A DNA stretch of 64,000 bases from the NCBI GenBank assembly GCA_000092065.1, contig CP000590.1; one strand, written 5' to 3'. The notes beneath the pieces were generated by a model, which worked only from the letters and a program-made list of their open reading frames with translations, was not told the DNA's origin and ran no database searches. Numbering within the stretch: position 1 is the stretch's first letter; every line of letters begins with the position of its first letter. The position numbers and the translations under genes were made by a program. The stretch is from Ostreococcus lucimarinus (lineage: Eukaryota). This document shows, one piece after another, positions 52,322-63,130 of the stretch.

Positions 52322-55300
52322 TCACTTGCGGGGTGATGCGACTCGATTGGCCCATTTGGGCGTCGAAGCCGGCGCGGGGGCGTCGGTCGCGCGCTCGGCG
52401 TCGTCGTGACTGATGAACGCGCCGTGCACCTGTTTCGCCTCTGGGAATAACGCCGTGTATTCCGGATTGTCCTGCACGCGGTAACTCGGCAAACCAGAGA
52501 GTGAAGTTTCATGATCACCATCCTTTAACATGTTGTCTCGAGCTTCAGAGAAGTTGCTGAATTGCACGTCAGCCTTCCATTCGCTCGCTCCCAAGCCTTT
52601 ACAGCCGAGCAAGTAGAGCGCCGTATTACCGACGCTCGAGAAGAAGGCTTTGATGAGCAAGTAGATAAAGTACGCCATGAGTGGGATCAATTGGATCAAT
52701 CCATTGACGCGATAGAATCGCTCTTTGAAGTCGAGCTGTTCGTACTTGGTCATATTCGCTCTAACGGTCCAGAAATCGGAGTCGCGTTGGTCGTAAATTT
52801 CCTCGGCCCACCCGTCCAACCCAGTGAGAAAGTAGGACGGTATGTCCCACTGAGAGAACGCCCAAGATGAGAAGGCGAAGTGCGCCAAGCACGCCAGCGG
52901 GGCGTACGACATAAACTGTCTCGCCAACTTGTGATCATACAGCGAAGGGTAGCGCGAGTGACGTAAAATCATCGTCTTGTCGCTCCAGTACGCCAAGAAG
53001 CAATAGAACGCCGCCACCGGAACGAGCACTGGAGCGGCCGCGAAGAGAACGATTGCGGTAAATATCACCGTCATACACTGACCGTAACGTTCAGCGAGCG
53101 TAAATTTTGGTCGTTGATAAAGACGATTCAAGTTGTACTGCGTGGTGCACCATCGCGCCGTCCAATAACGCCAGAGTTGCGTGAGCCACATTTGCACAAG
53201 ACGCGACGGTCCAAACCACGAGGCGTTGATGAATGTAGTAATCATGAGCGATCTCATCACGAGCGCGTACCAGTCCAACGTCACGTCTTCGTAGCTTCCT
53301 CTGAACAAGATTGGGAAGCCTGAGAAACCCTTGATTTCGATGTTAACGAGTAACGGAAGAATCAGGGCGTTCGTGATGAGGGTGAAGAACGCAAAACGAC
53401 TCGTCGTTCTTTCCGTGGCAGATACAGTCTTGTGGCGCTCGAAGAGCGCAAACTTTCCCGACGTCCACAACAAGAGCATAGACGTCAATGCGACGACGGA
53501 CAGCCGACCGACTTCGAAACCAAAGATTAGTAGTTGATCGTAAAAGTAGTCTTTGCAGATGGTTGTCACGCGTCCCGACCGTATCGCGCTCTCACACATG
53601 CAGTCATAACAAATTTTCGCCGCACACTCATCGGCCTTCGTAGAGGCGTCCATGCCTCCATTCCATACTCCACCAGAATATCCATAAGCGTTAGCGCTAG
53701 AGACGCTTAATGAAGAGTACGCGCCCACGGCTTCGTAATATGGCGAGTATTGCGTCATGTCATACGACCACATTGCCGACTCGATGAATGGGTTGCAGTC
53801 TGAGCTCTCGACTTGTTTTCGGAAGTTGACGTTCGAAATCAATCCCAAATCGGTTTCGAGACTGTTTTCGTTGATGTTCCAGATCGCAGGGCAGTACATG
53901 TTATCAGAAGCCCCCGAGGCGAACAAGTCGCCACAGTTGACGAGTAATCGCCCGCCGGATTTTACCCAGTCGGTGGCAAAAACGACAAGGATAATGTTGC
54001 CGATGAGAAGACCAAGGATAGCAATCGTTGTAATCGCCCGTCGTACGAAGTATTGTTTCCAACCCACGTTAGCCATATTTTCCCACATGATATCAGAGGC
54101 TTCCACGGCTTGGGTAACCCGCAAGTAGTGAAATGCGTCGCCCTTGCCGTCTTCGCGAGGGTGGACGCGAAATCTCGTTCGCTTACTTCTGAAAAAATTA
54201 AAGTACGGAGCGTACTCGTCCAGACATGTCATTTTGTCCGACTCTTGTTCAAACGTGATGAAAGCGTAAACGATGTTAAAAGGCTCGAGCATACGCTGCT
54301 CGATTTTTTCCTTCAAGGCGTTCATCTTATCGCGTGCTTTGTAAAATTGTTTCCATTTGCGTTTGAAGGCGTAGTTTGCGTTGTAATCCTCGCCGCGCTT
54401 CTTCAGCGTGTGACGGATCGCGCTCAGTTCAGATTTCAGCTGTTCTGCACGTTTAAATAAGCGCGCACGATGTATTCGCGCGCGTAAAACTGCACCATAC
54501 GAACGAGCTATGACGACATCTGCCACGGGTCCGAATTCTTCAAAGTGCTCGCGCACTTCGTCCTCCGTCGCGTCTACTGGCAAGCCGGTCACTTGGAGCG
54601 AATAGTCCGCCAAAGTGAGTAAAGCTTCATCAACGCGGACGACAAAGCTTCGAATACGTCTGGATAAAATCGCCGTTATGAGCATGAACATCAAAACCAT
54701 GCAAACGTCCAAGCACGAGAGAACAGCCATGATGGTACGAATATCTATACCATACGCCGAAGCATAAACGCCCGCCGCCGTGACACCGAGTGTCGTCGTT
54801 ATTTCCGGCTCTACCTCGACGCTACTACTTTTATTGGCGATATACACATAGTGCGAGAGCGCGACAGACGCGAGCATTGTGATGTAGACAAACGTTTTAC
54901 CCAACGTCTTCAACTGAGCGAACCACAAGCTGATACCCGGGCCGAGAACGTCGAGATCGTCGCTCGTCGATTTCCACAAAGGAAGCTGGTTGCCCTCTTT
55001 GTCTAAAACCGCAGACTCAAGATTCTCCAATCGCGCGATGTGTCGGCGCGGTGCTTTGTACGCCGGGAGCTTTTCGCTCATGACAGCTTTGTAGTACGAG
55101 TCTTCCACGACTTGCTGCATCGGCTTATCCTCTGCGTGCGCGGTCTTCACCAGCACACCGGTCGGGCCCGTCGGCGCATTCATCGAATTGATTCGACTCT
55201 TCATTTTAGTAATCACTGTCGGAGCGCCATTCACAAACGTGCTGACATCACCGGCGTCTTCGTCGTCGGCGGCGCCGAGCGCCTCGTCCAACCGAAGCCT

Positions 55301-55765
55301 CCCCGCCTCTCGCGCCTCGACGTCAGCGCCCTCCTCGAGTTCTCGCACCCGTCGTCGCAGCGTCGCCGTCCACGTGTACGCCGGTACCGCCGCATCCTCT
55401 TCTTTTCGCTTCATTCGAAACCCTTCGTCTTCGTCCTCGTCTTCGTCGTCGCTCGCGTTCGCTTCCTCGCGTTGGCGTTCTCTCGCGAGCGTTTCAATCC
55501 TGTCTGATTTCATTTTCGCGTCCGCGTCCGCGCGCACGGCGTCCTCGTTCAATTTCGTCGCCATCGTATCGCGTCGCGAAAGTGTTCGAGCAATCGCGGG
55601 CGCGGGTTCGGGGTCGTTCGTCCGGGCGTCCGCGTCGCCGCCGCCGCGCGACACCGCGCGCGAAATTGAACGAAGAAGTCCAAGTCCAAGGTCTCCCAAA
55701 GCGGCGATGCCGCGGTCGATCGGGGCATCGGACGCGCGCGATGGATCGGGTTGCGCCGACGCCAT
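52322..55765 (-). CDS. OSCA/CSC1/TMEM63-like calcium-permeable stress-gated cation channel (RSN1_TM, PHM7_cyt and DUF221 7TM domains) with a long N-terminal extension and a Cys-rich inserted loop
   Basis: The cytosolic RRM-like domain reads QVTGLPVDATEDEVREHFEEFGPVADVVIARS...NIVYAFITFEQESDKMTC...ASDIMWENM, with multi-TM blocks before and after it. An extra loop of about 170 aa carries more than 12 Cys (CGDLFASGASDNMYCPAIWN...CAAKICYDCMCES). The first ATG is at 55765. The gene is about 50 % GC. Confidence 0.6.
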   Translation of the reverse strand: MASAQPDPSRASDAPIDRGIAALGDLGLGLLRSISRAVSRGGGDADARTNDPEPAPAIARTLSRRDTMATKLNEDAVRADADAKMKSDRIETLARERQREEANASDDEDEDEDEGFRMKRKEEDAAVPAYTWTATLRRRVRELEEGADVEAREAGRLRLDEALGAADDEDAGDVSTFVNGAPTVITKMKSRINSMNAPTGPTGVLVKTAHAEDKPMQQVVEDSYYKAVMSEKLPAYKAPRRHIARLENLESAVLDKEGNQLPLWKSTSDDLDVLGPGISLWFAQLKTLGKTFVYITMLASVALSHYVYIANKSSSVEVEPEITTTLGVTAAGVYASAYGIDIRTIMAVLSCLDVCMVLMFMLITAILSRRIRSFVVRVDEALLTLADYSLQVTGLPVDATEDEVREHFEEFGPVADVVIARSYGAVLRARIHRARLFKRAEQLKSELSAIRHTLKKRGEDYNANYAFKRKWKQFYKARDKMNALKEKIEQRMLEPFNIVYAFITFEQESDKMTCLDEYAPYFNFFRSKRTRFRVHPREDGKGDAFHYLRVTQAVEASDIMWENMANVGWKQYFVRRAITTIAILGLLIGNIILVVFATDWVKSGGRLLVNCGDLFASGASDNMYCPAIWNINENSLETDLGLISNVNFRKQVESSDCNPFIESAMWSYDMTQYSPYYEAVGAYSSLSVSSANAYGYSGGVWNGGMDASTKADECAAKICYDCMCESAIRSGRVTTICKDYFYDQLLIFGFEVGRLSVVALTSMLLLWTSGKFALFERHKTVSATERTTSRFAFFTLITNALILPLLVNIEIKGFSGFPILFRGSYEDVTLDWYALVMRSLMITTFINASWFGPSRLVQMWLTQLWRYWTARWCTTQYNLNRLYQRPKFTLAERYGQCMTVIFTAIVLFAAAPVLVPVAAFYCFLAYWSDKTMILRHSRYPSLYDHKLARQFMSYAPLACLAHFAFSSWAFSQWDIPSYFLTGLDGWAEEIYDQRDSDFWTVRANMTKYEQLDFKERFYRVNGLIQLIPLMAYFIYLLIKAFFSSVGNTALYLLGCKGLGASEWKADVQFSNFSEARDNMLKDGDHETSLSGLPSYRVQDNPEYTALFPEAKQVHGAFISHDDAERATDAPAPASTPKWANRVASPRK

Positions 55766-55943
55766 CGCTGCCGTCGCGCGCGCGCGCGCGCGATCGAACA
55801 CGGCGCGAAGTGCGGCGGCGCGTCGCGCGTAGACGCGCAAACGCAAAAGTTTGCGGTTCGGCGCCTCGCGCGAGCTCGATGAGGTTTTCGTTTCGGTTTG
55901 GAGAAGAAAATATTACAACGCGAGAGCGTGCGATGGAGTACGA

Positions 55944-56955
55944 TCACGCGGATAGTTTGGCGTCGCGCTCTTCGTGTTCCCACGGGGCGTCGCCGACTTG
56001 GTAGCCCCCTGCGCGGAAGCTTCGCAAGTAGTCCAACACGTAGCCGTTTTCGATGTTGTTCGGCTCAATGCCGAGATCGGAAAAACCGAGGCTGTCGGCC
56101 CGCTTGACGTAATCTCGGCTTTGAGCGTCGATGTACGATCGCGTCAAGCCCAACGGGGTGGGCATGGGGAACGGTACGCGTCGCAAAAGCCACTCGTGCG
56201 GACACGAGAGCGCCTTCATGATGAAACTCGGGATGTACGCCGTCGACTTGCGCGTGCGAATGGTTTTAAGAACCATCTTCGCAAGTTCGTCAAAAGTATA
56301 CACCTTATTCCCCGCGAGCTCGTACGTTCGCCCGCTCGTCAACTCGTCGTGGACGATTTGACGAATCGCCACCGCGACGTCATCCACGAACACGGGTTGG
56401 TGCTTGGTGTCGCCGCCATCGATGATAGGCACCGCTGGATACTTGCGCGAATGCTCGCCGAAAATGTTCAAGAATCTATCTTCGACGCCCACTATTTTGG
56501 CCGGCCGCACTATCGTAGCTGAAGGGAACGCCTCCCGCACCGCCGCCTCGCCGGCGGCTTTTGATCTGTAATACGCACTCGGGTGGTCTTCCTCGGCCCC
56601 CAAAGCGCTCACGTGAACCAGTCTACGCACGCCCACGTCGGCGCAAATCTCCGCCAATTTCTTTGGAAACGTCACGTTGACGTCTTCGAACGAAAAGTTA
56701 CGCGTCTCCCACTCTCGACCCACCATGTTGATGACGACGTTGCTCCGCTCTACGGCGTATCGAATCGTCTCCTCGTCTCTGATCCCGTAATCCAACTGCA
56801 CAATCTGCCCGAGGTCTCCCATCACTTTGAGATGTTGACGATCATTCTCCGAGCATCGCGTGGGTAGAATCATGCGCGACCCGCTCTTGGCGACGTGATG
56901 GACGACGTATCGTCCCAAAAAACCCGTCGAGCCGAAAACCGTGCACGTGATCCCG
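55944..56955 (-). CDS. NDUFA9: Complex I 39-kDa subunit NDUFA9 (NAD(P)-binding Rossmann, SDR-like), exon 2 of 2
   Basis: [92 protein letters not shown] is colinear with human NDUFA9 ([31 protein letters not shown]...MGDLGQ...NVVINLIGRDWETKNF). Confidence 0.85.
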
Positions 56956-57212
56956 CTGTTCGTCATCAAAAATCCCATTCGTCAGTCTCTCTGCTCGTCG
57001 GCGTCCACCGGCGACGACTCGCACGAGCGTCGTGCACCGACTCTCGACGCGATTTCCACGCCGGCGCGCCTTTGCGTCGCCGCGTCGCGTCGTCGCCGCT
57101 TTACTCGCGTCCTCAAACCTATCGCCCCGCGCTCGCTCGCGTCCAGTCCACCCGCGTTCGCTCGTCGCGCGCGATCGCGCGTCGCGTCGCGTCACCGATC
57201 GCTCGCGCGCAC

Positions 57213-57415
57213 CTGAACGACGACCGTCCGCCCGTGCCGACCGCGTCGCTCGTCACGCTCGGCGGTGGAACTTTGAAATCTTTGCCCGGTTTGATGCTCA
57301 TCGCGCGCGCGCTCGCGAAGAGCGCGGGGAGCGCCTGCGTGGACGCGCGCGCGTCGGTGACTCGCCACCGCGCGGCGGCGGACGTCGCCAAGCGTCGAGC
57401 GAGCGCGCGCGACAT
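57213..57415 (-). CDS. NDUFA9: NDUFA9 exon 1 (mitochondrial presequence)
   Basis: MSRALARRLATSAAARW...IKPGKDFKVPPPSVTSDAVGTGGRSSF followed by 'ag', then the donor GTGCGCGCG. The phase-2 splice to the acceptor aacag|C at 56955 yields [21 protein letters not shown], matching human [21 protein letters not shown]. The intron 56956-57212 has a CTGAC branch point 27 nt before the AG and contains the ORF-track pseudo-start ATGGGATTT. Confidence 0.7.
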
Positions 57416-57615
57416 CTCGCGATGGTAGCAGTCGCGCTCTGCCGATGAGAGGCGATCAGCTGGGGTTGCGCGCGCCGACGAGCGGCGGCGAAACGCGACG
57501 CGACGAACGCGACGCGCGCGACGCGACGACGAGCCGCGAACGATGAAAAAATGAGACCTTGGTAGAATTACAACGCGAACGCGCGCGTCTCTCGACGTCG
57601 ACGACGCGGGCGAAG

Positions 57616-58143
57616 TCATCGACATTTGACGACCAACGCGAGCGACCGCGAGACAGCCGCCGCGAACGCCGCTCGATCCTCCTCGGGCAACGAAACCAAT
57701 CTTTGATCTAAAACCGCCGCCAGCAACTCGCACGCGTTCGTGGCGACGCGCACGAGCGCGAGCTCGGGCGAGGTCGCCGCGCTCGCGCTCGCGGTCGCGT
57801 CGGAACCGCCGCTCGCGTTCGCGCTCGCGCCGTACCGCTCCGCGTCCGCCGCCCTTCGCTTCGCGCGTTCGTCCCAATCGATCGGCAGCCGTTTCTGCGT
57901 CGATTTCGCCTCGTCGTGCGACTTCTTTCCCGGCGGCGCCGGCGCCTGCGCGCGCCTTTCCGCGTCTATCTTCGACATCCAATAGGCCTCAACCTCTTCG
58001 CTCGTCTTGTACGACGCGTCGCCCTCGTCGCTCGCGCCGTACGCGCCTCGCGCGCTGAAGCTCGCGGTGGCCACTCTGCCCGGGTCGCTCACCGCGTTCG
58101 TGCGCTCGTTCCAGCCGTACGGCAACCCGGTGGCGGGATCCAT
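57616..58143 (-). CDS. Hypothetical 175-aa protein
   Basis: An ATG-initiated ORF in a head-to-head arrangement with the SnRK1 beta-gamma gene. No convincing domain is present; a WW-like start (LPYGWNERT) lacks the second Trp. Confidence 0.3.
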   Translation of the reverse strand: MDPATGLPYGWNERTNAVSDPGRVATASFSARGAYGASDEGDASYKTSEEVEAYWMSKIDAERRAQAPAPPGKKSHDEAKSTQKRLPIDWDERAKRRAADAERYGASANASGGSDATASASAATSPELALVRVATNACELLAAVLDQRLVSLPEEDRAAFAAAVSRSLALVVKCR

Positions 58144-58347
58144 CGCGTCGCGGCGTCGCGAATTGACGCCCGACGAGTCGTACGCACTTCGCGACGACCG
58201 ACGCGCCCTGGCGCGAAGACGCGCGACGCGAGCGTCGACCGCGCGCTCGATCGTCTCTTAGCGCTCGATCGCGGACGCGCGGGCGCGACGACGCGCGGGC
58301 GCGACGGAATCGAGACGCAATCGAGACGCAATCGAGACGCAATCGCC

Positions 58348-60165
58348 ATGAGCGCGCGCGGTGATCGCGGACGAGGCGCGCGCGACGACGACGCGGACGA
58401 GGCGGGGATCGATCGCGCGCGCACGCCGCAGAGCGCGCATCGCGCGGACGCGAACGGTGATCCGCACGCGCAGACGCCGACGATGCAGAATCAACACGGC
58501 GAGGCGTACCCGACGCGGTTTCAGTGGACGTACGCGGGCGCGAATAACGTGCACCTGTGCGGATCGTTCACGAATTGGTTGGAGACGGTGCCCATGGCGT
58601 GCGAGACGCACGGTGATGGGAATCGCGTGTTCACGGTGATGTGCGATCTGCCGCCGGGGTATCATCAGTATAAATTCATCGTGGACGGACAGTGGCGACA
58701 CGACGAAAATCAGGCGTTTATTCAGGACCCGCTGGGGAACGTGAATAATTGGTTGTACGTGAAACCGGCGGGGGGGGCGACGCCGCCGATGTCGAGCGCG
58801 CCGAGAACGGCGGAGATGGCGCCGAGAAGTGCGCCGGTGCCCGTGCCGGGGGCGATGATGAATCGATCGGCGATGAGCACGGAGAGCGGCGGGATGGACT
58901 GGGTGCGAGAGGCGGGCGGCATCGCGGGGGGGAGGGGAGAGACCGCGGCGCGCGCGGGATCCGTCAAGTCGAGGCGCACGAGCATGGACACGCAAAGCGC
59001 GCAGCGAGCGATGTCGGACGCCGACGCGGGGGCGGAGAGCGCGCAGAGCGGGGAGGCGGACACGAGCGGGGCGCGCGTGATGGAATTTTTGCAAAAGCAC
59101 ACTGCGTACGAGCTAATTCCGGAATCGAACAAGGTCGTGGTTTTAGACACGAAGCTTCCCATTCGTCAGGCATTTCACGCGTTTTACGAACAGGGCATCT
59201 ACGCCGCGCCACTGTGGGATGAGGACGCGCGCGATTTCATCGGATTGTTGAGCGCGGGCGACTTCATCGACATCATGCGTCGGTTAACCGCGACGCTGGC
59301 CGATCGCGAGGACTTGAGCGATGCAGATTTGGATCAGTACACGATTCAGCTCATTCGAGAGGAGTACGCAAAAGAGGATATTCAAGCGAAACCGCTCATT
59401 TGCGTGAAGCCGGAGGATTCGTTGTATCACGTAGCGTTAACCATGACCGAGGCCGGTGTGCACAACGTTCCAGTGCTGTCGCACGGCTCGGTGTGCCCGG
59501 CGGGTGGGTCGGCGGCCACGTCCACGACGACTGGCTCGCCGCAGTTATTGCATATGACCAATCTCGCAGAGGTCTTGGCGTGCTTAAACAGACATTTTAG
59601 AGGTATTCCGAGCGCGCTGCCGCTCTTTTCGCAACCCATCGGGGCGTTGCCGATCGGCACGTGGACCGAGCGCTACGGCGGCTCTCGCTCGAAGCCGATT
59701 CCGCCATTACCAGAAGGCGTCCAAGAGAGTTACTTAGTACGTGAGCTCTATCCCATACGCGCGGTCACCCCAGACGCGTCGATCGAGCAAGTTTTCGATG
59801 TCTTACACGGGATATCCGCGTTGCCCATCGTCAACGAGCACGGCGTGTTGATGGATCTTTACGCTCGCGGCGATGTCATCCGTCTGGCCGCCAACAGCGC
59901 GTACCGCGCCTCAATCAAGGATATGTGTGTCGCTCAAGCTCTCGGCGCGACTCGTCCGACTGCTCTGAACGAGCAAAACGATCCGTCTTCGACGCACTAC
60001 GGCCGTTTCAGCACGTGCGTTCGCGGCGACACCCTGCGCACCGCGCTCGAGATGTTATCACTCCCCAACATCCGTCGCTTGATCGTCGTCGATCCAACGA
60101 CCAAAGTTGTCGAGGGCGTCGTTTCTTTATCCGACGTGTTTAGTTTCTTGATCGAAAACGCGTGA
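58348..60165 (+). CDS. SnRK1/AMPK regulatory beta-gamma hybrid subunit (N-terminal CBM48 glycogen-binding module plus four CBS domains), AKINbetagamma-like
   Basis: CBM48: YPTRFQWTYAGANNVHLCGSFTNWLETVPM...GYHQYKFIVDGQWRHDENQAFIQDPLGNVNNWLYV. CBS pairs: VVVLDTKLPIRQAFHAFYEQGIYAAPLWDEDARDFIGLLSAGDFIDI, HNVPVL and LPIVNEHGVLMDLYARGDVIRLA. The ATG at 58348 is preceded by a 3x 11-bp tandem repeat (AATCGAGACGC). Confidence 0.8.
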   Translation: MSARGDRGRGARDDDADEAGIDRARTPQSAHRADANGDPHAQTPTMQNQHGEAYPTRFQWTYAGANNVHLCGSFTNWLETVPMACETHGDGNRVFTVMCDLPPGYHQYKFIVDGQWRHDENQAFIQDPLGNVNNWLYVKPAGGATPPMSSAPRTAEMAPRSAPVPVPGAMMNRSAMSTESGGMDWVREAGGIAGGRGETAARAGSVKSRRTSMDTQSAQRAMSDADAGAESAQSGEADTSGARVMEFLQKHTAYELIPESNKVVVLDTKLPIRQAFHAFYEQGIYAAPLWDEDARDFIGLLSAGDFIDIMRRLTATLADREDLSDADLDQYTIQLIREEYAKEDIQAKPLICVKPEDSLYHVALTMTEAGVHNVPVLSHGSVCPAGGSAATSTTTGSPQLLHMTNLAEVLACLNRHFRGIPSALPLFSQPIGALPIGTWTERYGGSRSKPIPPLPEGVQESYLVRELYPIRAVTPDASIEQVFDVLHGISALPIVNEHGVLMDLYARGDVIRLAANSAYRASIKDMCVAQALGATRPTALNEQNDPSSTHYGRFSTCVRGDTLRTALEMLSLPNIRRLIVVDPTTKVVEGVVSLSDVFSFLIENA

Positions 60166-60265
60166 GCGTCGCCGCCGTTTAATATCAAGTTCTGTACCAA
60201 ACCACTCCGTCGTCGCGCCGCGCCGTCGACCGCGCACGTCACACGCGCGCGCGCGTCACGCCACC

Positions 60266-63130
60266 ATGTCCGAGCCCACGTTCGGAGCGCTGCGTCGTGA
60301 CGTCCTCCTGACCTCGTTCAGCCGCCCCGCGGACGCACGCGCGCGCGACGGCGCCGCCGCCGCCGCCGCGGATGCGCCGTCAACCGCGCCGACATCCTGC
60401 GTCGCCCTCGCGCGTGCGCTGCGTCGAGGCGCCTACGACGACGTCCTGCGGTCGCCCACCGTCCTCGCCGCGCTCGGCGTCGACGCGAACGACGCGCGGG
60501 AAGACGCGCGCGCGCATTACGAAGCGCTGGGCGCCGCGGCGCGAGACGCGCGGGACGACGAAGGCGCGTTCGCCGTCGCGTGCGCGGGCGTCGCGGCGCT
60601 GTACGCGTTCGTGCGAGCGACAGTGACCGGACCGAGGATTGGAAATGCGCGAGCGACGCCTTTTCTGGACGCGACGGCGCGCGAGGCGAGGGACGAGGCG
60701 TGGGACGCGTACGCGCGAGAGCGGCTGTCGCTCGACGGGGAGGATTTAGTGGGGAGGTGCGATATGCCGCAGTATTTGTACCTGGCGCGCGTGCTTTTGC
60801 TCGATCGGTTCGCAACGTCGTTGGCGTGGCTGCAAACGTTAGACGTGCCGGCGTTGACCCTGAAGGACGCGCGCGCGGCGGTGCCCGTGGGCGCGGTGGC
60901 GAAGCGGACGTCGCACGACGCGATGTGCGCGTGGTTCGCGGCGCGCGTTGCCATCACGCAGCAGCGAGCGTTGGCGGGGCAGTCGCCGACGTTGCGTGGG
61001 GAATTATTGGGATTACATGCGTATAATTTAGCGACATTTGCGCCGGTGAGAGTGGAAGGGCAGACACCGCACCGCGAGGACGTCGTCTTCGAGGCGATGG
61101 CTCGCCTGGAGGCGTCGTTGATGGAACACCAATACGGACACGTCGACAGCGCTTATGTTTTGCAGCGCGGTGCGGCGGCGGCGTTCGGTTTGAAGCATGA
61201 GATCGGTGGTGTTTTAGGTTACCGAACGATTCATCAGCAAGATGCCAAGTCCCAGCTCGTGCTCAACGTTGAATTAGATTCGATGGATTGGGGCGAGAGC
61301 GACGACGAAGACGAGGACGAAGATGAGGGCGAGCTAGACGATTTAGAGCTCGAGGGACGTTCGCAGGCTATGGCACGCATCGCCACAGAATTGACGGGTT
61401 TAAGCGAAGACGGCAGTCAGATTCTTACGAGACCTCGTTTGATGGAAGGCATGCCACCGCCGGCGCAAATGCCCTCCGCGGCGCAAGCGATCCTCATCGC
61501 CGCGGCTATTACGGTTCGTAAAAAGCAAGCCGACGATGGGTTGAGAAGTTACGAAATGGCACCGTACACCGAATTTGTAGGTGCGCAGCAAAAGTCACAA
61601 CCAATTCTTCGTGCCGCGACGACGGTCTTGACGTCGAGATATGAACGCGATCGCGCGCGTACCCGCGAAAGATCGCTATTAGTGCTCGAAGACTTGGTAC
61701 AGACGCTCGAGCGTTCGCACCCGAAGGTGTCGTCTCGCATGCGCTTCGTATTTTCTACGTGGTTCCCTCCCGCGATGACGCTGAAGAAAGAACTCGGCGA
61801 GCAGCTCGTGAGCATCGGTATGGTTGGCGCAGCGCTCGAACTGTTTGAGGAGGTCGAGCTGTGGGATTCGCTCATCGTTTGCTTGAGTTTATTGGGCAAG
61901 AAACAACAAGCGGCCGACCTAGTGCGACGGCGCTTGCAGGCAGATGATACCAATCCTAAACTTTGGTGCGCGCTCGGTGACGCTCTCGATGACGAACAAT
62001 ACTACTGGAAAGCTTGGGAAGTGAGCGGCGAGCGCAACGCCAGGGCGAAGCGGTCTCTGGCGCGCCGCGCCGCGGCGAGAGAGGATTGGGCTAATGCCGC
62101 AGAGCACTGGATGGATGCGCTTAAAATTAACCCATTGTTTCCAGACGGATGGTTTTCCGGTGGATACGCGTGCTTGAAATGCGATCGAACCGACGACGCG
62201 CTCGCGGCTTTCGTGCGATGCACGCAAATAGACGTTGAAAACGGGCAGGCGTGGAACAACGTCGCGGCGCTAAGCATTCGTCTCGGACGGTTCACCGCGG
62301 CGCACACGGCTTTGTGCGAAGCGATCAAGCATCAACGCACAAGCTGGCACACCTGGGAAAATCACGCGATGGTATGCGCCAAGGTCGGGAAGTTCGCGAC
62401 GAGCGCTTTGGCGTTGCTCAAGGTGCTCGAACTCACGCAGGGCGCACGCGTGCACGTGGAGACCGTTCAGACTTTGCTTGAACGCGTGAGGGAAGCGCGA
62501 GCCGATCCGACGGGAGCGAAGTGGATTCAAGACGCCGCAAGCTGGGAACAAGAAGATGCCGCTGTCGAGGACGAAGAAGAGGAGTCGTGGGCAGATATGA
62601 AAATGGGCGACCTCGCAGCGGACATGCTTGCGGCGTTCTCTGGCATCGATTTGCCAACGATTTCTTACGCGGCGAAAACCGAATCTGCGCACCCTTCTGG
62701 CATGCCTCGCGTTGCCTTACAACTCGAAGCCGCGCTGGAGCAAGTTCTCGTTCGATCTGCAACCGGCGGTAGCGGTGGCGAGCGTAAAGTTCAAGAGACA
62801 TCGCAAATTTGGGCCATGCTCGGCGAGTACAAATCCATCCTTGGAGAGTACGAAGAAGCGACGGATGCCCGATTGAAGAGCGTTCGCGCGCTGGATTCTT
62901 CGGGATGGCGTAAAGACTTCGATTCGTACGAAGACTACGCCGCGGTGACAAAAGTCATGGTTGAAGGCGTTTTGAACGACATCGAAGCCGGTAGAGGCGG
63001 AAGCGCGGACAGTCTCAGGCTTCACGTCAAGAGTGTCGTCAAGGTTGGCGAAAAGCAAGGCTTCGAGGAATCAGACGCGTACGCGCAGATGTCTTCATTG
63101 CTCGAGAAAGTGAATGCATTATCTAGTTAG
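60266..63130 (+). CDS. TTC27: Tetratricopeptide repeat protein 27 (TTC27)-like
   Basis: C-terminal TPR array with the TTC27-typical blocks: LWCALGDALDDEQYYWKAWEVSGERNARAKRSLA, NPLFPDGWFSGGYACLKCDRTDDALAAFVRCTQIDVENGQAWNNVA and SWHTWENHAMVCAKVGKF. Confidence 0.55.
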   Translation: MSEPTFGALRRDVLLTSFSRPADARARDGAAAAAADAPSTAPTSCVALARALRRGAYDDVLRSPTVLAALGVDANDAREDARAHYEALGAAARDARDDEGAFAVACAGVAALYAFVRATVTGPRIGNARATPFLDATAREARDEAWDAYARERLSLDGEDLVGRCDMPQYLYLARVLLLDRFATSLAWLQTLDVPALTLKDARAAVPVGAVAKRTSHDAMCAWFAARVAITQQRALAGQSPTLRGELLGLHAYNLATFAPVRVEGQTPHREDVVFEAMARLEASLMEHQYGHVDSAYVLQRGAAAAFGLKHEIGGVLGYRTIHQQDAKSQLVLNVELDSMDWGESDDEDEDEDEGELDDLELEGRSQAMARIATELTGLSEDGSQILTRPRLMEGMPPPAQMPSAAQAILIAAAITVRKKQADDGLRSYEMAPYTEFVGAQQKSQPILRAATTVLTSRYERDRARTRERSLLVLEDLVQTLERSHPKVSSRMRFVFSTWFPPAMTLKKELGEQLVSIGMVGAALELFEEVELWDSLIVCLSLLGKKQQAADLVRRRLQADDTNPKLWCALGDALDDEQYYWKAWEVSGERNARAKRSLARRAAAREDWANAAEHWMDALKINPLFPDGWFSGGYACLKCDRTDDALAAFVRCTQIDVENGQAWNNVAALSIRLGRFTAAHTALCEAIKHQRTSWHTWENHAMVCAKVGKFATSALALLKVLELTQGARVHVETVQTLLERVREARADPTGAKWIQDAASWEQEDAAVEDEEEESWADMKMGDLAADMLAAFSGIDLPTISYAAKTESAHPSGMPRVALQLEAALEQVLVRSATGGSGGERKVQETSQIWAMLGEYKSILGEYEEATDARLKSVRALDSSGWRKDFDSYEDYAAVTKVMVEGVLNDIEAGRGGSADSLRLHVKSVVKVGEKQGFEESDAYAQMSSLLEKVNALSS

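What the first reader, a model, noticed from the sequence alone, without database searches (positions are those of the whole stretch)
55944..57415. The NDUFA9 presequence lies in an upstream exon, and the ORF-track start codon sits inside the intron
ORF 55944..56978 begins [16 protein letters not shown] with no mitochondrial presequence. An upstream ATG at 57415 opens a presequence-like 67-codon exon ending GGRSSF plus 'ag', then the donor GTGCGCGCG. A phase-2 splice into aacag|C at 56955 gives [21 protein letters not shown], almost identical to human [21 protein letters not shown]. The apparent ATG at 56978 is therefore intronic, sitting just 3' of the CTGAC branch point. This is a clean case where naive ORF calling picks the wrong start.
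Basis: partly seen in the sequence, partly recalled or inferred. Interest (0 to 1): 0.5.

Follow-up and report, generated by a model that had tools for sequence, protein, structure and literature searches.

The report
NDUFA9 first exon missed by ORF calling

Summary
Every coordinate in the finding checks out on the minus strand. Exon 1 runs from the ATG at 57415 to 57213 (67 codons plus AG). The intron is 57212..56956 (257 nt, GTGCGC...AACAG). Exon 2 is 56955..55944. The spliced product is 404 aa.

The splice is shown directly. Six environmental cDNA-type contigs lack exactly 57212..56956. One carries a poly(A) tail and two carry a SMART template-switch oligo. The exact 404-aa protein is already in the public protein collection. 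Genomic contigs of the same species keep the intron.

Five other Ostreococcus lineages and a Micromonas-like contig have an intron at the same phase-2 position. Each Ostreococcus intron has a single ACTGAC 25-38 nt before the acceptor, which is the published Ostreococcus branch-site consensus. A Bathycoccus-like contig has no intron there.

The conserved GTGGRSS motif of solved plant and algal NDUFA9 chains is restored only in the spliced product. The ATG at 56978 is intronic.

One refinement: exon 1 encodes about 39 Arg-rich, poorly conserved presequence-like residues and also about 28 residues of the mature protein. Mitochondrial targeting and the branch point are inferred, not shown.

Verdict: real, correctly interpreted, already-known biology, low interest.

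The parts
57416..57428 (-). Minimal 5' UTR seen in cDNA. The transcription start site is not mapped. It probably lies between about 57555 and 57428.
   Evidence: cDNA contig L001 starts at window 57428. There is no ATG in any frame between the upstream gene's stop (57616) and 57415. The upstream gene's TGTAA signal is at 57572.
57213..57415 (-). Exon 1 coding part: the ATG at 57415, 67 codons and 2 nt (MSRALARR...GTGGRSSF + AG).
   Evidence: It is contiguous with exon 2 in cDNA contigs L001 and L015-L019.
57299..57415 (-). Predicted cleavable mitochondrial presequence, residues 1-39. It has 7 Arg, 1 Asp and net charge +6. A candidate R-3 processing motif is R37-A-M39|S40.
   Evidence: Composition is. 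The region is poorly conserved but Arg-rich in all six Ostreococcus lineages, and R-x-(M/Y/F)|(S/A) recurs at the same place. The function is inferred.
56956..57212 (-). Spliceosomal GT-AG intron, 257 nt, phase 2, 68% G+C.
   Evidence: It is absent from six cDNA-type contigs and present in the genomic metagenome contigs L002-L006. An orthologous intron sits at the same position in five other Ostreococcus lineages and one Micromonas-like contig.
56981..56986 (-). ACTGAC branch-site motif within GACTGACG. The predicted branch A is at 56982, 26 nt from the last intron base.
   Evidence: There is a single ACTGAC per orthologous intron, 25-38 nt from the acceptor. The published consensus is in PMC2483917. 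Use as a branch point is inferred.
56976..56978 (-). ATG of the naive 344-aa ORF. It is intronic and is not a start codon of the spliced mRNA.
   Evidence: The MGFLMTN residues have no counterpart in any ortholog.
55944..56955 (-). Exon 2 coding part, from the last base of the Ser68 codon to the TGA stop at 55946..55944. It contains the Rossmann GxxGxxG motif (G76-S-T-G79-F-L-G82) and the rest of the NDUFA9 SDR fold.
   Evidence: Pfam PF01370, PF13460 and PF05368 are on the product.
55891..55943 (-). 3' UTR of about 50 nt, with a TGTAA poly(A) signal at 55917..55913 and a poly(A) addition site at about 55894-55891.
   Evidence: L017 ends ...CCAAACCG followed by a run of 23 A. L001 ends at 55896 and L018 at 55895. 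TGTAA is located.
57114..57123 (-). GATAGGTTTG, a conserved island inside the intron of unknown meaning. It is included as part of the intron anatomy.
   Evidence: It is unique in the window as an exact match. It is exact in the orthologous introns of L009, L011/L012 and L013/L014 at a similar offset from the donor.

Best explanation
This is the nuclear gene for the NDUFA9 / 39-kDa subunit of mitochondrial complex I of an Ostreococcus green alga, very probably O. lucimarinus or a near-identical clade.

The gene has two coding exons on the minus strand. Translation starts at the ATG at 57415, the first AUG downstream of the neighbouring gene's poly(A) signal. Exon 1 (57415..57213) encodes an Arg-rich N-terminal extension of about 39 residues and the first 28 or so residues of the mature protein, including the conserved GTGGRSS motif. 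The extension most likely acts as a cleavable matrix-targeting presequence.

A canonical U2-type GT-AG intron (57212..56956) is removed, using the GACTGACG branch site at 56987..56980. Exon 1 joins exon 2 in phase 2, giving a 404-aa precursor. The mRNA is polyadenylated about 20 nt after a TGTAA signal.

The 344-aa ORF starting at 56978 is an artefact of prokaryote-style ORF calling. It begins in the intron and replaces conserved residues with MGFLMTN.

Shown: intron removal, the exact junction, polyadenylation, orthologous intron conservation and NDUFA9 homology. Inferred: start-codon choice, mitochondrial import, the cleavage site near M39|S40 and the branch adenosine.
For: 1. Sequence arithmetic gives exon 1 of 203 nt, an intron of 257 nt with GT..AG, and a spliced CDS of 1215 nt or 404 aa.

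2. The exact 404-aa product is in the public collection (P0122). It sits on the 1276-nt contig L001, which aligns to 57428..57213 and 56958..55896, so the intron is precisely missing.

3. Five more contigs (L015-L019) lack exactly the same 257 nt. L017 ends in a poly(A) run. L015 and L019 begin with the SMART template-switch oligo GTGGTATCAACGCAGAGTACGGGG. They are therefore cDNA and not an intron-less allele. Genomic contig L002 is collinear with the window and includes the intron.

4. A PDB sequence search gave top hits that are all complex I NDUFA9 / 39-kDa chains, with E values of 1.6e-92 to 3e-87. The alignments run across the junction: query 60-68 GTGGRSSFS matches GTGGRSSVS.

5. Orthologs in five other Ostreococcus lineages have an intron at the identical phase-2 site. 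These introns are 185-259 nt, all GT..AG, and each has one ACTGAC 25-38 nt from the acceptor. A Micromonas-like contig has a 132-nt intron at the same site. MMETSP Ostreococcus transcripts P0166 and P0167 and the O. tauri RefSeq model P0149 carry the same spliced junction.

6. Of EST-confirmed O. lucimarinus introns outside chromosome 2, 87% contain ACTGAC and 66.5% contain GACTGACG (PMC2483917). This intron has GACTGACG.

7. There is no ATG between the upstream gene's stop and 57415. All lineages with a complete exon 1 have a 64-67-codon exon 1 beginning MS..(A)RR.

8. Residues 1-39 have 7 Arg, 1 acidic residue and net charge +6. Across nine sequences only M1 is invariant before residue 60, against 28 invariant positions among residues 60-102. 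This is the pattern expected of a presequence followed by mature protein.
Against: No targeting predictor (TargetP or MitoFates) could be run. My hydrophobic-moment test did not separate the N-terminus from its own shuffles: 62% of shuffles scored at least as high. The presequence call therefore rests on composition, position, the conservation pattern and family knowledge.

The transcription start is unmapped. Some cDNA contigs (L015 and L019) run in from the upstream gene's capped 5' end at 58164. This most likely reflects assembly of overlapping transcripts in a very compact genome, but read-through transcripts are not excluded.

The in-frame internal Met39 (ATG at 57301) could serve as a secondary start. 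The O. tauri RefSeq model starts at the equivalent Met.

I could not confirm from metadata that JGI sample 3300028137 is a metatranscriptome.
Confidence: 0.95

Rival explanations
1. The naive single-exon ORF (ATG at 56978, 344 aa) is the real protein, and the upstream reading frame is a coincidence of GC-rich sequence.
For: The ORF is intact and starts with ATG. An identical 344-aa sequence (P0121) circulates in public collections, including NCBI-sourced data. GC-rich DNA does give long spurious open frames here, for example the 287-aa ORF at 57119..57982.
Against: All six cDNA-type contigs remove 57212..56956, which contains this ATG. MGFLMTN is not conserved in any ortholog. Prokaryote-style calls in each lineage diverge exactly before SGITCTVFG. 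The 344-aa form lacks GTGGRSS, which is conserved from plants to algae, and it has no N-terminal extension.
Confidence: 0.01
2. The contigs lacking the 257 nt come from genomic DNA of strains that have lost the intron, a presence/absence polymorphism, and not from spliced RNA.
For: Several of these contigs are multi-gene. Their full lengths reach 10.5 kb, and they carry genes on both strands, which looks genomic. No other intron lies in the overlapped span to act as a control.
Against: L017 ends in a non-templated poly(A) run at the expected distance after TGTAA. L015 and L019 start with a SMART template-switch oligo. L001 and L018 also end at the same poly(A) site. These are hallmarks of cDNA libraries. 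Multi-gene contigs are expected from unstranded RNA assemblies of a genome with intergenic spacers of about 200 nt. Even if this rival were true, the same protein would result.
Confidence: 0.02
3. The splice is real, but translation starts mainly at the internal Met39 (ATG at 57301). The protein would then have no, or only a very short, cleavable presequence, as in the O. tauri RefSeq model of 359 aa.
For: The O. tauri RefSeq protein XP_022839800.1 (P0149) begins at the equivalent Met. The amphipathicity test on residues 1-39 was inconclusive.
Against: The ATG at 57415 is the first AUG of the 5' region and has a purine at -3. An in-frame 64-67-codon exon 1 with an Arg-rich MS..ARR start is kept in the five lineages for which a complete exon 1 was recovered, including the O. 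tauri-like genomic contig L009, and in the MMETSP transcripts. Met39 itself is not conserved: the aligned residue is Y or F in other lineages.
Confidence: 0.04

Closest known systems
NDUFA9 / 39-kDa (NUEM) accessory subunit of mitochondrial complex I, e.g. Vigna radiata 6x89 chain A9, Arabidopsis 7a23/7ar7, and the 39-kDa subunit in entry 9f5x
   Same: There is full-length homology, with E values of 1.6e-92 to 3e-87 and alignments covering residues ~44-395. It has the SDR/Rossmann fold families PF01370, PF13460 and PF05368. The GxxGxxG nucleotide-binding motif is present. The conserved GTGGRSSxSGI segment precedes the Rossmann fold. There is an N-terminal extension ahead of the conserved part.
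   Different: Nothing substantive differs. The N-terminal extension is species-specific in sequence, as presequences usually are. Association with complex I in this alga was not tested here.
Canonical Ostreococcus spliceosomal introns outside chromosome 2 (Irimia & Roy 2008, PMC2483917)
   Same: It has GT..AG ends, a strong donor of the GTGCGC type, and the extended branch motif GACTGACG close to the 3' splice site.
   Different: At 257 nt it is longer than the median of 111 nt reported for predicted O. lucimarinus introns. Otherwise it is typical.
O. tauri RefSeq model XP_022839800.1 (359 aa) and MMETSP Ostreococcus transcripts (400 aa; UniRef A0A6U0ENS2)
   Same: They have the same exon 1/exon 2 junction, GGRSS(F/S)|SGITCTVFG, so the intron is already represented in public annotation of sister species.
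   Different: The O. tauri model starts at the internal Met and lacks the Arg-rich first ~39 residues that its own genomic sequence can encode (L009). For the window's species, only the truncated 344- and 309-aa forms carry an NCBI source tag.

Membership tests
NDUFA9 / 39-kDa subunit of complex I | Full-length sequence homology to subunits seen in solved complex I structures | tested here: met
   In one search the best 30 PDB matches are all NDUFA9, 39-kDa or NUEM chains. The top E value is 1.6e-92, with aligned region 60-395 of 404.
NDUFA9 / 39-kDa subunit of complex I | SDR Rossmann fold with an N-terminal GxxGxxG dinucleotide-binding motif | tested here: met
   G76-S-T-G79-F-L-G82 is invariant across the alignment. 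Pfam Epimerase, NAD_binding_10 and NmrA are on the product.
NDUFA9 / 39-kDa subunit of complex I | Conserved GTGGRSSxSG segment immediately N-terminal to the Rossmann fold | tested here: met
   It is present only in the spliced product (residues 60-69). It aligns to [10 protein letters not shown] of the Vigna and Arabidopsis chains and is invariant at G60, G62, G63, R64, S66, S68 and G69.
NDUFA9 / 39-kDa subunit of complex I | Cleavable N-terminal mitochondrial presequence | tested here: inconclusive
   The composition fits: 7 Arg, 1 Asp, net +6 and 62% A/S/T/L in residues 1-39. An R-x-(M/Y/F)|(S/A) motif recurs in six lineages. The hydrophobic-moment test was not above shuffles, and no TargetP or MitoFates was available.
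NDUFA9 / 39-kDa subunit of complex I | Physical presence in assembled complex I with bound NADPH | not testable with these tools
   This needs proteomics or structure determination of Ostreococcus complex I.
U2-type GT-AG spliceosomal intron (Ostreococcus non-chromosome-2 class) | Precise removal from mature polyadenylated mRNA | tested here: met
   Six cDNA-type contigs share the identical junction, and poly(A) and template-switch oligo sequences are present.
U2-type GT-AG spliceosomal intron (Ostreococcus non-chromosome-2 class) | GT donor, AG acceptor and an ACTGAC/GACTGACG branch motif near the 3' end | tested here: met
   the donor is GTGCGCGC, the acceptor is GAACAG, and ACTGAC is at 56986..56981. 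The consensus is from PMC2483917.
U2-type GT-AG spliceosomal intron (Ostreococcus non-chromosome-2 class) | Use of A56982 as the lariat branch point | not testable with these tools
   This needs lariat-derived reads or primer extension.

The most novel reading that the evidence does not exclude
The most novel reading not excluded concerns the intron, which may be more than a spacer. It carries a short island, G(C/G)GATAGGTTTG(A/G)G at 57114..57123, that is exact in four of six Ostreococcus lineages while the surrounding intron has diverged beyond alignment. It could be a conserved cis-regulatory element for this respiratory-chain gene, for example a transcription-factor or splicing-regulator site, or an intron-mediated enhancer.

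Separately, the truncated public models (344 and 309 aa for this species, 359 aa for O. tauri) hint that reference Ostreococcus annotations may systematically lose short 5' exons that encode organelle-targeting peptides.
Probability: 0.15. Interest if true: 0.3.

Novelty: already known. Interest (0 to 1): 0.1.

Why it matters
The practical value is annotation quality. Prokaryote-style or homology-poor gene calling on this compact algal genome yields a 344-aa or 309-aa NDUFA9. These forms lack the targeting sequence and a conserved N-terminal motif. Such truncated forms are the ones that dominate public collections. Any localisation prediction or complex I subunit inventory based on them would be wrong for this protein. 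Biologically nothing here is unexpected: a nuclear complex I subunit with an N-terminal presequence and a canonical, lineage-typical intron.

Tried and rejected
- Intron-less allele instead of splicing. I rejected this because the contigs carry a poly(A) tail and template-switch oligos.
- Other introns in the span covered by the cDNA contigs (60620..53103), sought as an internal control. There are none, because the alignments show no other gap, so this control was unavailable.
- Amphipathic-helix test on residues 1-39 (Eisenberg moment, 18-residue window, 1000 shuffles). It was not significant, so it is not used as support.
- Rfam scan of 55700..57800 at E<=1, to look for an intron-hosted snoRNA or other RNA. 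There were no hits.
- Multiple alignment of the six orthologous introns. They are essentially unalignable apart from the ends, the ACTGAC motif and the GATAGGTTTG island.
- Naming the source genome through contig look-ups. Only metagenome and transcriptome contigs were returned, so the species assignment to O. lucimarinus remains an inference. It rests on 87% aa identity to O. tauri, shared synteny, 60.7% G+C and the intron signals.
- Literature search for the SRR run accession. It found nothing.
- A conserved alternative start inside the intron. In-frame intronic ATGs used by gene callers differ in position and sequence in every lineage, so this was rejected.

Full report
**Observation.**
- The ATG is at 57415.
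- Exon 1 is 57415..57213 (203 nt). It gives 67 codons, MSRALARRLATSAAARWRVTDARASTQALPALFASARAMSIKPGKDFKVPPPSVTSDAVGTGGRSSF, plus AG.
- The intron is 57212..56956 (257 nt) and runs from GTGCGCGCGA to GATGACGAACAG.
- Exon 2 starts at C56955 and runs to the TGA at 55946..55944.
- AG+C makes Ser68, so the junction reads [21 protein letters not shown]. The spliced CDS is 1215 nt, or 404 aa.
- The 344-aa ORF of the mechanical ORF list starts at the ATG at 56978. This lies 22 nt upstream of the acceptor and 2 nt after CTGAC (ACTGAC at 56986..56981).

Every coordinate and string in the finding is correct.

**Direct evidence for the splice.** An exact look-up showed that the 404-aa spliced product is already in the public protein collection (P0122, JGI only). 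A 472-aa version, P0128, has the same junction.
- P0122 is encoded on the 1276-nt contig L001. L001 aligns to the window in two blocks, 57428..57213 and 56958..55896. The 3-nt overlap is the CAG shared by the exon 1 end and the intron end. The 257 nt are therefore precisely missing.
- Five further contigs, L015-L019 from SRR28369xxx runs, have the identical deletion and no other gap between 60620 and 53103.
- These contigs are cDNA and not an intron-less allele. L017 ends ...CCAAACCG followed by 23 A. L015 and L019 begin with the SMART template-switch oligo GTGGTATCAACGCAGAGTACGGGG.
- Metagenomic DNA contigs of the same organism (L002-L006, 99.7% identical) retain the intron.

**What the gene is.** A sequence search of the PDB returns only complex I NDUFA9 / 39-kDa / NUEM chains at the top.
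- Vigna 6x89 gives 1.6e-92, entry 9f5x gives 1.7e-90, and Arabidopsis 7a23 and 7ar7 give 2e-89 and 3e-87.
- The alignments run straight across the exon junction. Query 60-68 GTGGRSSFS matches GTGGRSSVS.
- The Rossmann motif G76-S-T-G79-F-L-G82 follows, and Pfam Epimerase, NAD_binding_10 and NmrA hits are on record.

**Comparative evidence.** The closest database proteins are prokaryote-style calls from marine metagenomes. All of them lose similarity exactly before SGITCTVFG, for example ...TTRSGIT...LMLSGIT...RRNSGIT and ...SRRSGIT. This is the signature of a shared intron position.
- I fetched genomic loci for five other Ostreococcus lineages. In each I located GGRSS(F/S)+AG|GT...AG|(C/T)GG. 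The introns are 185-259 nt and phase 2. Each contains exactly one ACTGAC, whose branch A lies 25-38 nt before the acceptor.
- Transcriptome-derived proteins of one of these lineages (MMETSP P0166 and P0167, 400 aa), P0139 and the O. tauri RefSeq protein (P0149) carry the spliced junction.
- A Micromonas-like contig has a 132-nt intron at the same site. A Bathycoccus-like contig reads straight through, GTGGRSSYSGITAAVFG.
- Irimia & Roy 2008 report that 87.2% of EST-confirmed O. lucimarinus introns outside chromosome 2 contain ACTGAC and 66.5% contain GACTGACG (PMC2483917). The present intron has GACTGACG.

Actual branch usage is still an inference.

**Start codon and presequence.**
- The upstream gene, a 175-aa ORF at 58143..57616, has a TGTAA signal at 57572. 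There is no ATG in any frame between its stop and 57415. The ATG at 57415 is therefore the first AUG available to a scanning ribosome on any transcript that starts in the spacer. L001 starts 13 nt upstream of it.
- The exon 1 frame happens to stay open far upstream (ORF 57119..57982), which explains the 472-aa call P0128.
- Five of the six Ostreococcus lineages, counting the window's own, show a 64-67-codon exon 1 that starts MS..(A)RR. The exception is L010, whose short contig has no in-frame ATG upstream of the donor; the MMETSP transcripts of that lineage (P0166 and P0167) begin MSSAILRR.
- Residues 1-39 have 7 Arg, one Asp, net charge +6 and 62% Ala/Ser/Thr/Leu.
- In a nine-sequence alignment only M1 is invariant before residue 60, while 28 of the 43 positions in 60-102 are invariant.
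- At the end of the variable part every lineage has R-x-(M/Y/F) followed by S or A. In the window this is R37-A-M39|S40. In the others it is REY|A, RSM|A, RAF|A, RDF|S and RDF|S. From general knowledge this resembles the R-3 motif of the mitochondrial processing peptidase.
- I therefore predict a presequence of about 39 residues and a mature N-terminus near SIKPGKDFKVPPP.
- This part is inferred. No targeting predictor was available, and my hydrophobic-moment test was not better than shuffles.

**3' end.** TGTAA lies at 55917..55913. L001 and L018 end at 55896 and 55895, and L017's poly(A) starts after ...CCG at 55894. The 3' UTR is therefore about 50 nt.

**Rivals.**
- The naive ORF as the true protein is contradicted by all cDNA contigs and by the lack of conservation of MGFLMTN.
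- An intron-less genomic allele is contradicted by the poly(A) tail and the template-switch oligos.
- Initiation at Met39, as in the O. tauri RefSeq model, is possible as a minor event. It is disfavoured by first-AUG logic, by conservation of the longer exon 1 and by non-conservation of that Met.

**Comparison with what is known, and verdict.** This is an ordinary two-exon nuclear gene for a well-known complex I subunit, with a lineage-typical intron. The junction is already present in public transcript data and in the sister species' annotation. The only new element is that the forms of this species' protein carrying NCBI, ENA or Tara source tags are the truncated 344- and 309-aa ORFs, so the correct 404-aa model is an annotation improvement. 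The interest is low.

Noticed in passing
window 57114..57123 (- strand), inside the intron; also L009:1603-1612, L011:1537-1546, L013:1533-1542: The 10-mer GATAGGTTTG, within G(C/G)GATAGGTTTG(A/G)G, is unique in the 64-kb window. It is exactly conserved about 78-90 nt after the donor in the orthologous intron of four of six Ostreococcus lineages, while the rest of the intron does not align. It is absent from L007/L008 and L010. Its meaning is unknown. It contains an AG|GT.
   Followed up: partly
L009:1300-1520 (O. tauri-like genomic contig) versus protein P0149 (XP_022839800.1): The O. tauri RefSeq NDUFA9 model (359 aa) starts at an internal Met (MASAAKEFKVPPP). The genomic sequence has an in-frame upstream ATG that gives a 67-codon exon 1 with an Arg-rich start (MSLSRARRASTRLADV...). 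That reference model is probably N-terminally truncated too.
   Followed up: partly
window 58164 (- strand); L015 and L019 5' ends: Two cDNA contigs begin with a SMART template-switch oligo and then window base 58164, which is 21 nt upstream of the ATG (58143) of the neighbouring 175-aa gene. This probably marks that gene's capped 5' end. The same contigs continue into NDUFA9 and beyond, which suggests overlapping or read-through transcripts across spacers of about 200 nt.
   Followed up: partly
window 57572..57568 and 55917..55913 (- strand): TGTAA occurs only twice on the minus strand of 55800..57700. Each occurrence is about 30-45 nt after a stop codon, that of the 175-aa gene and that of NDUFA9. 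One is followed about 20 nt later by an observed poly(A) site. This is consistent with TGTAA acting as the poly(A) signal, as in other green algae (from general knowledge).
   Followed up: partly
L021:1833-1914 (Bathycoccus-like) and L020:1455-1586 (Micromonas-like): The phase-2 intron in the Ser codon before GIT is shared by the Ostreococcus and Micromonas-like contigs but is absent from the Bathycoccus-like contig. This implies either gain in the Ostreococcus/Micromonas ancestor or loss in Bathycoccus. The Micromonas-like intron has no ACTGAC, and CTCAC is its best branch-like motif.
   Followed up: no
window 52322..60165: The gene order is conserved across the Ostreococcus lineages: an AMPK-type CBM/CBS-domain protein (+ strand, about 58.3-60.2 kb), the 175-aa gene, NDUFA9, and a large PHM7_cyt (CSC1/OSCA-like) membrane protein (52322..55846). 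None of these neighbours shows an intron in the cDNA-covered span 60620..53103.
   Followed up: partly
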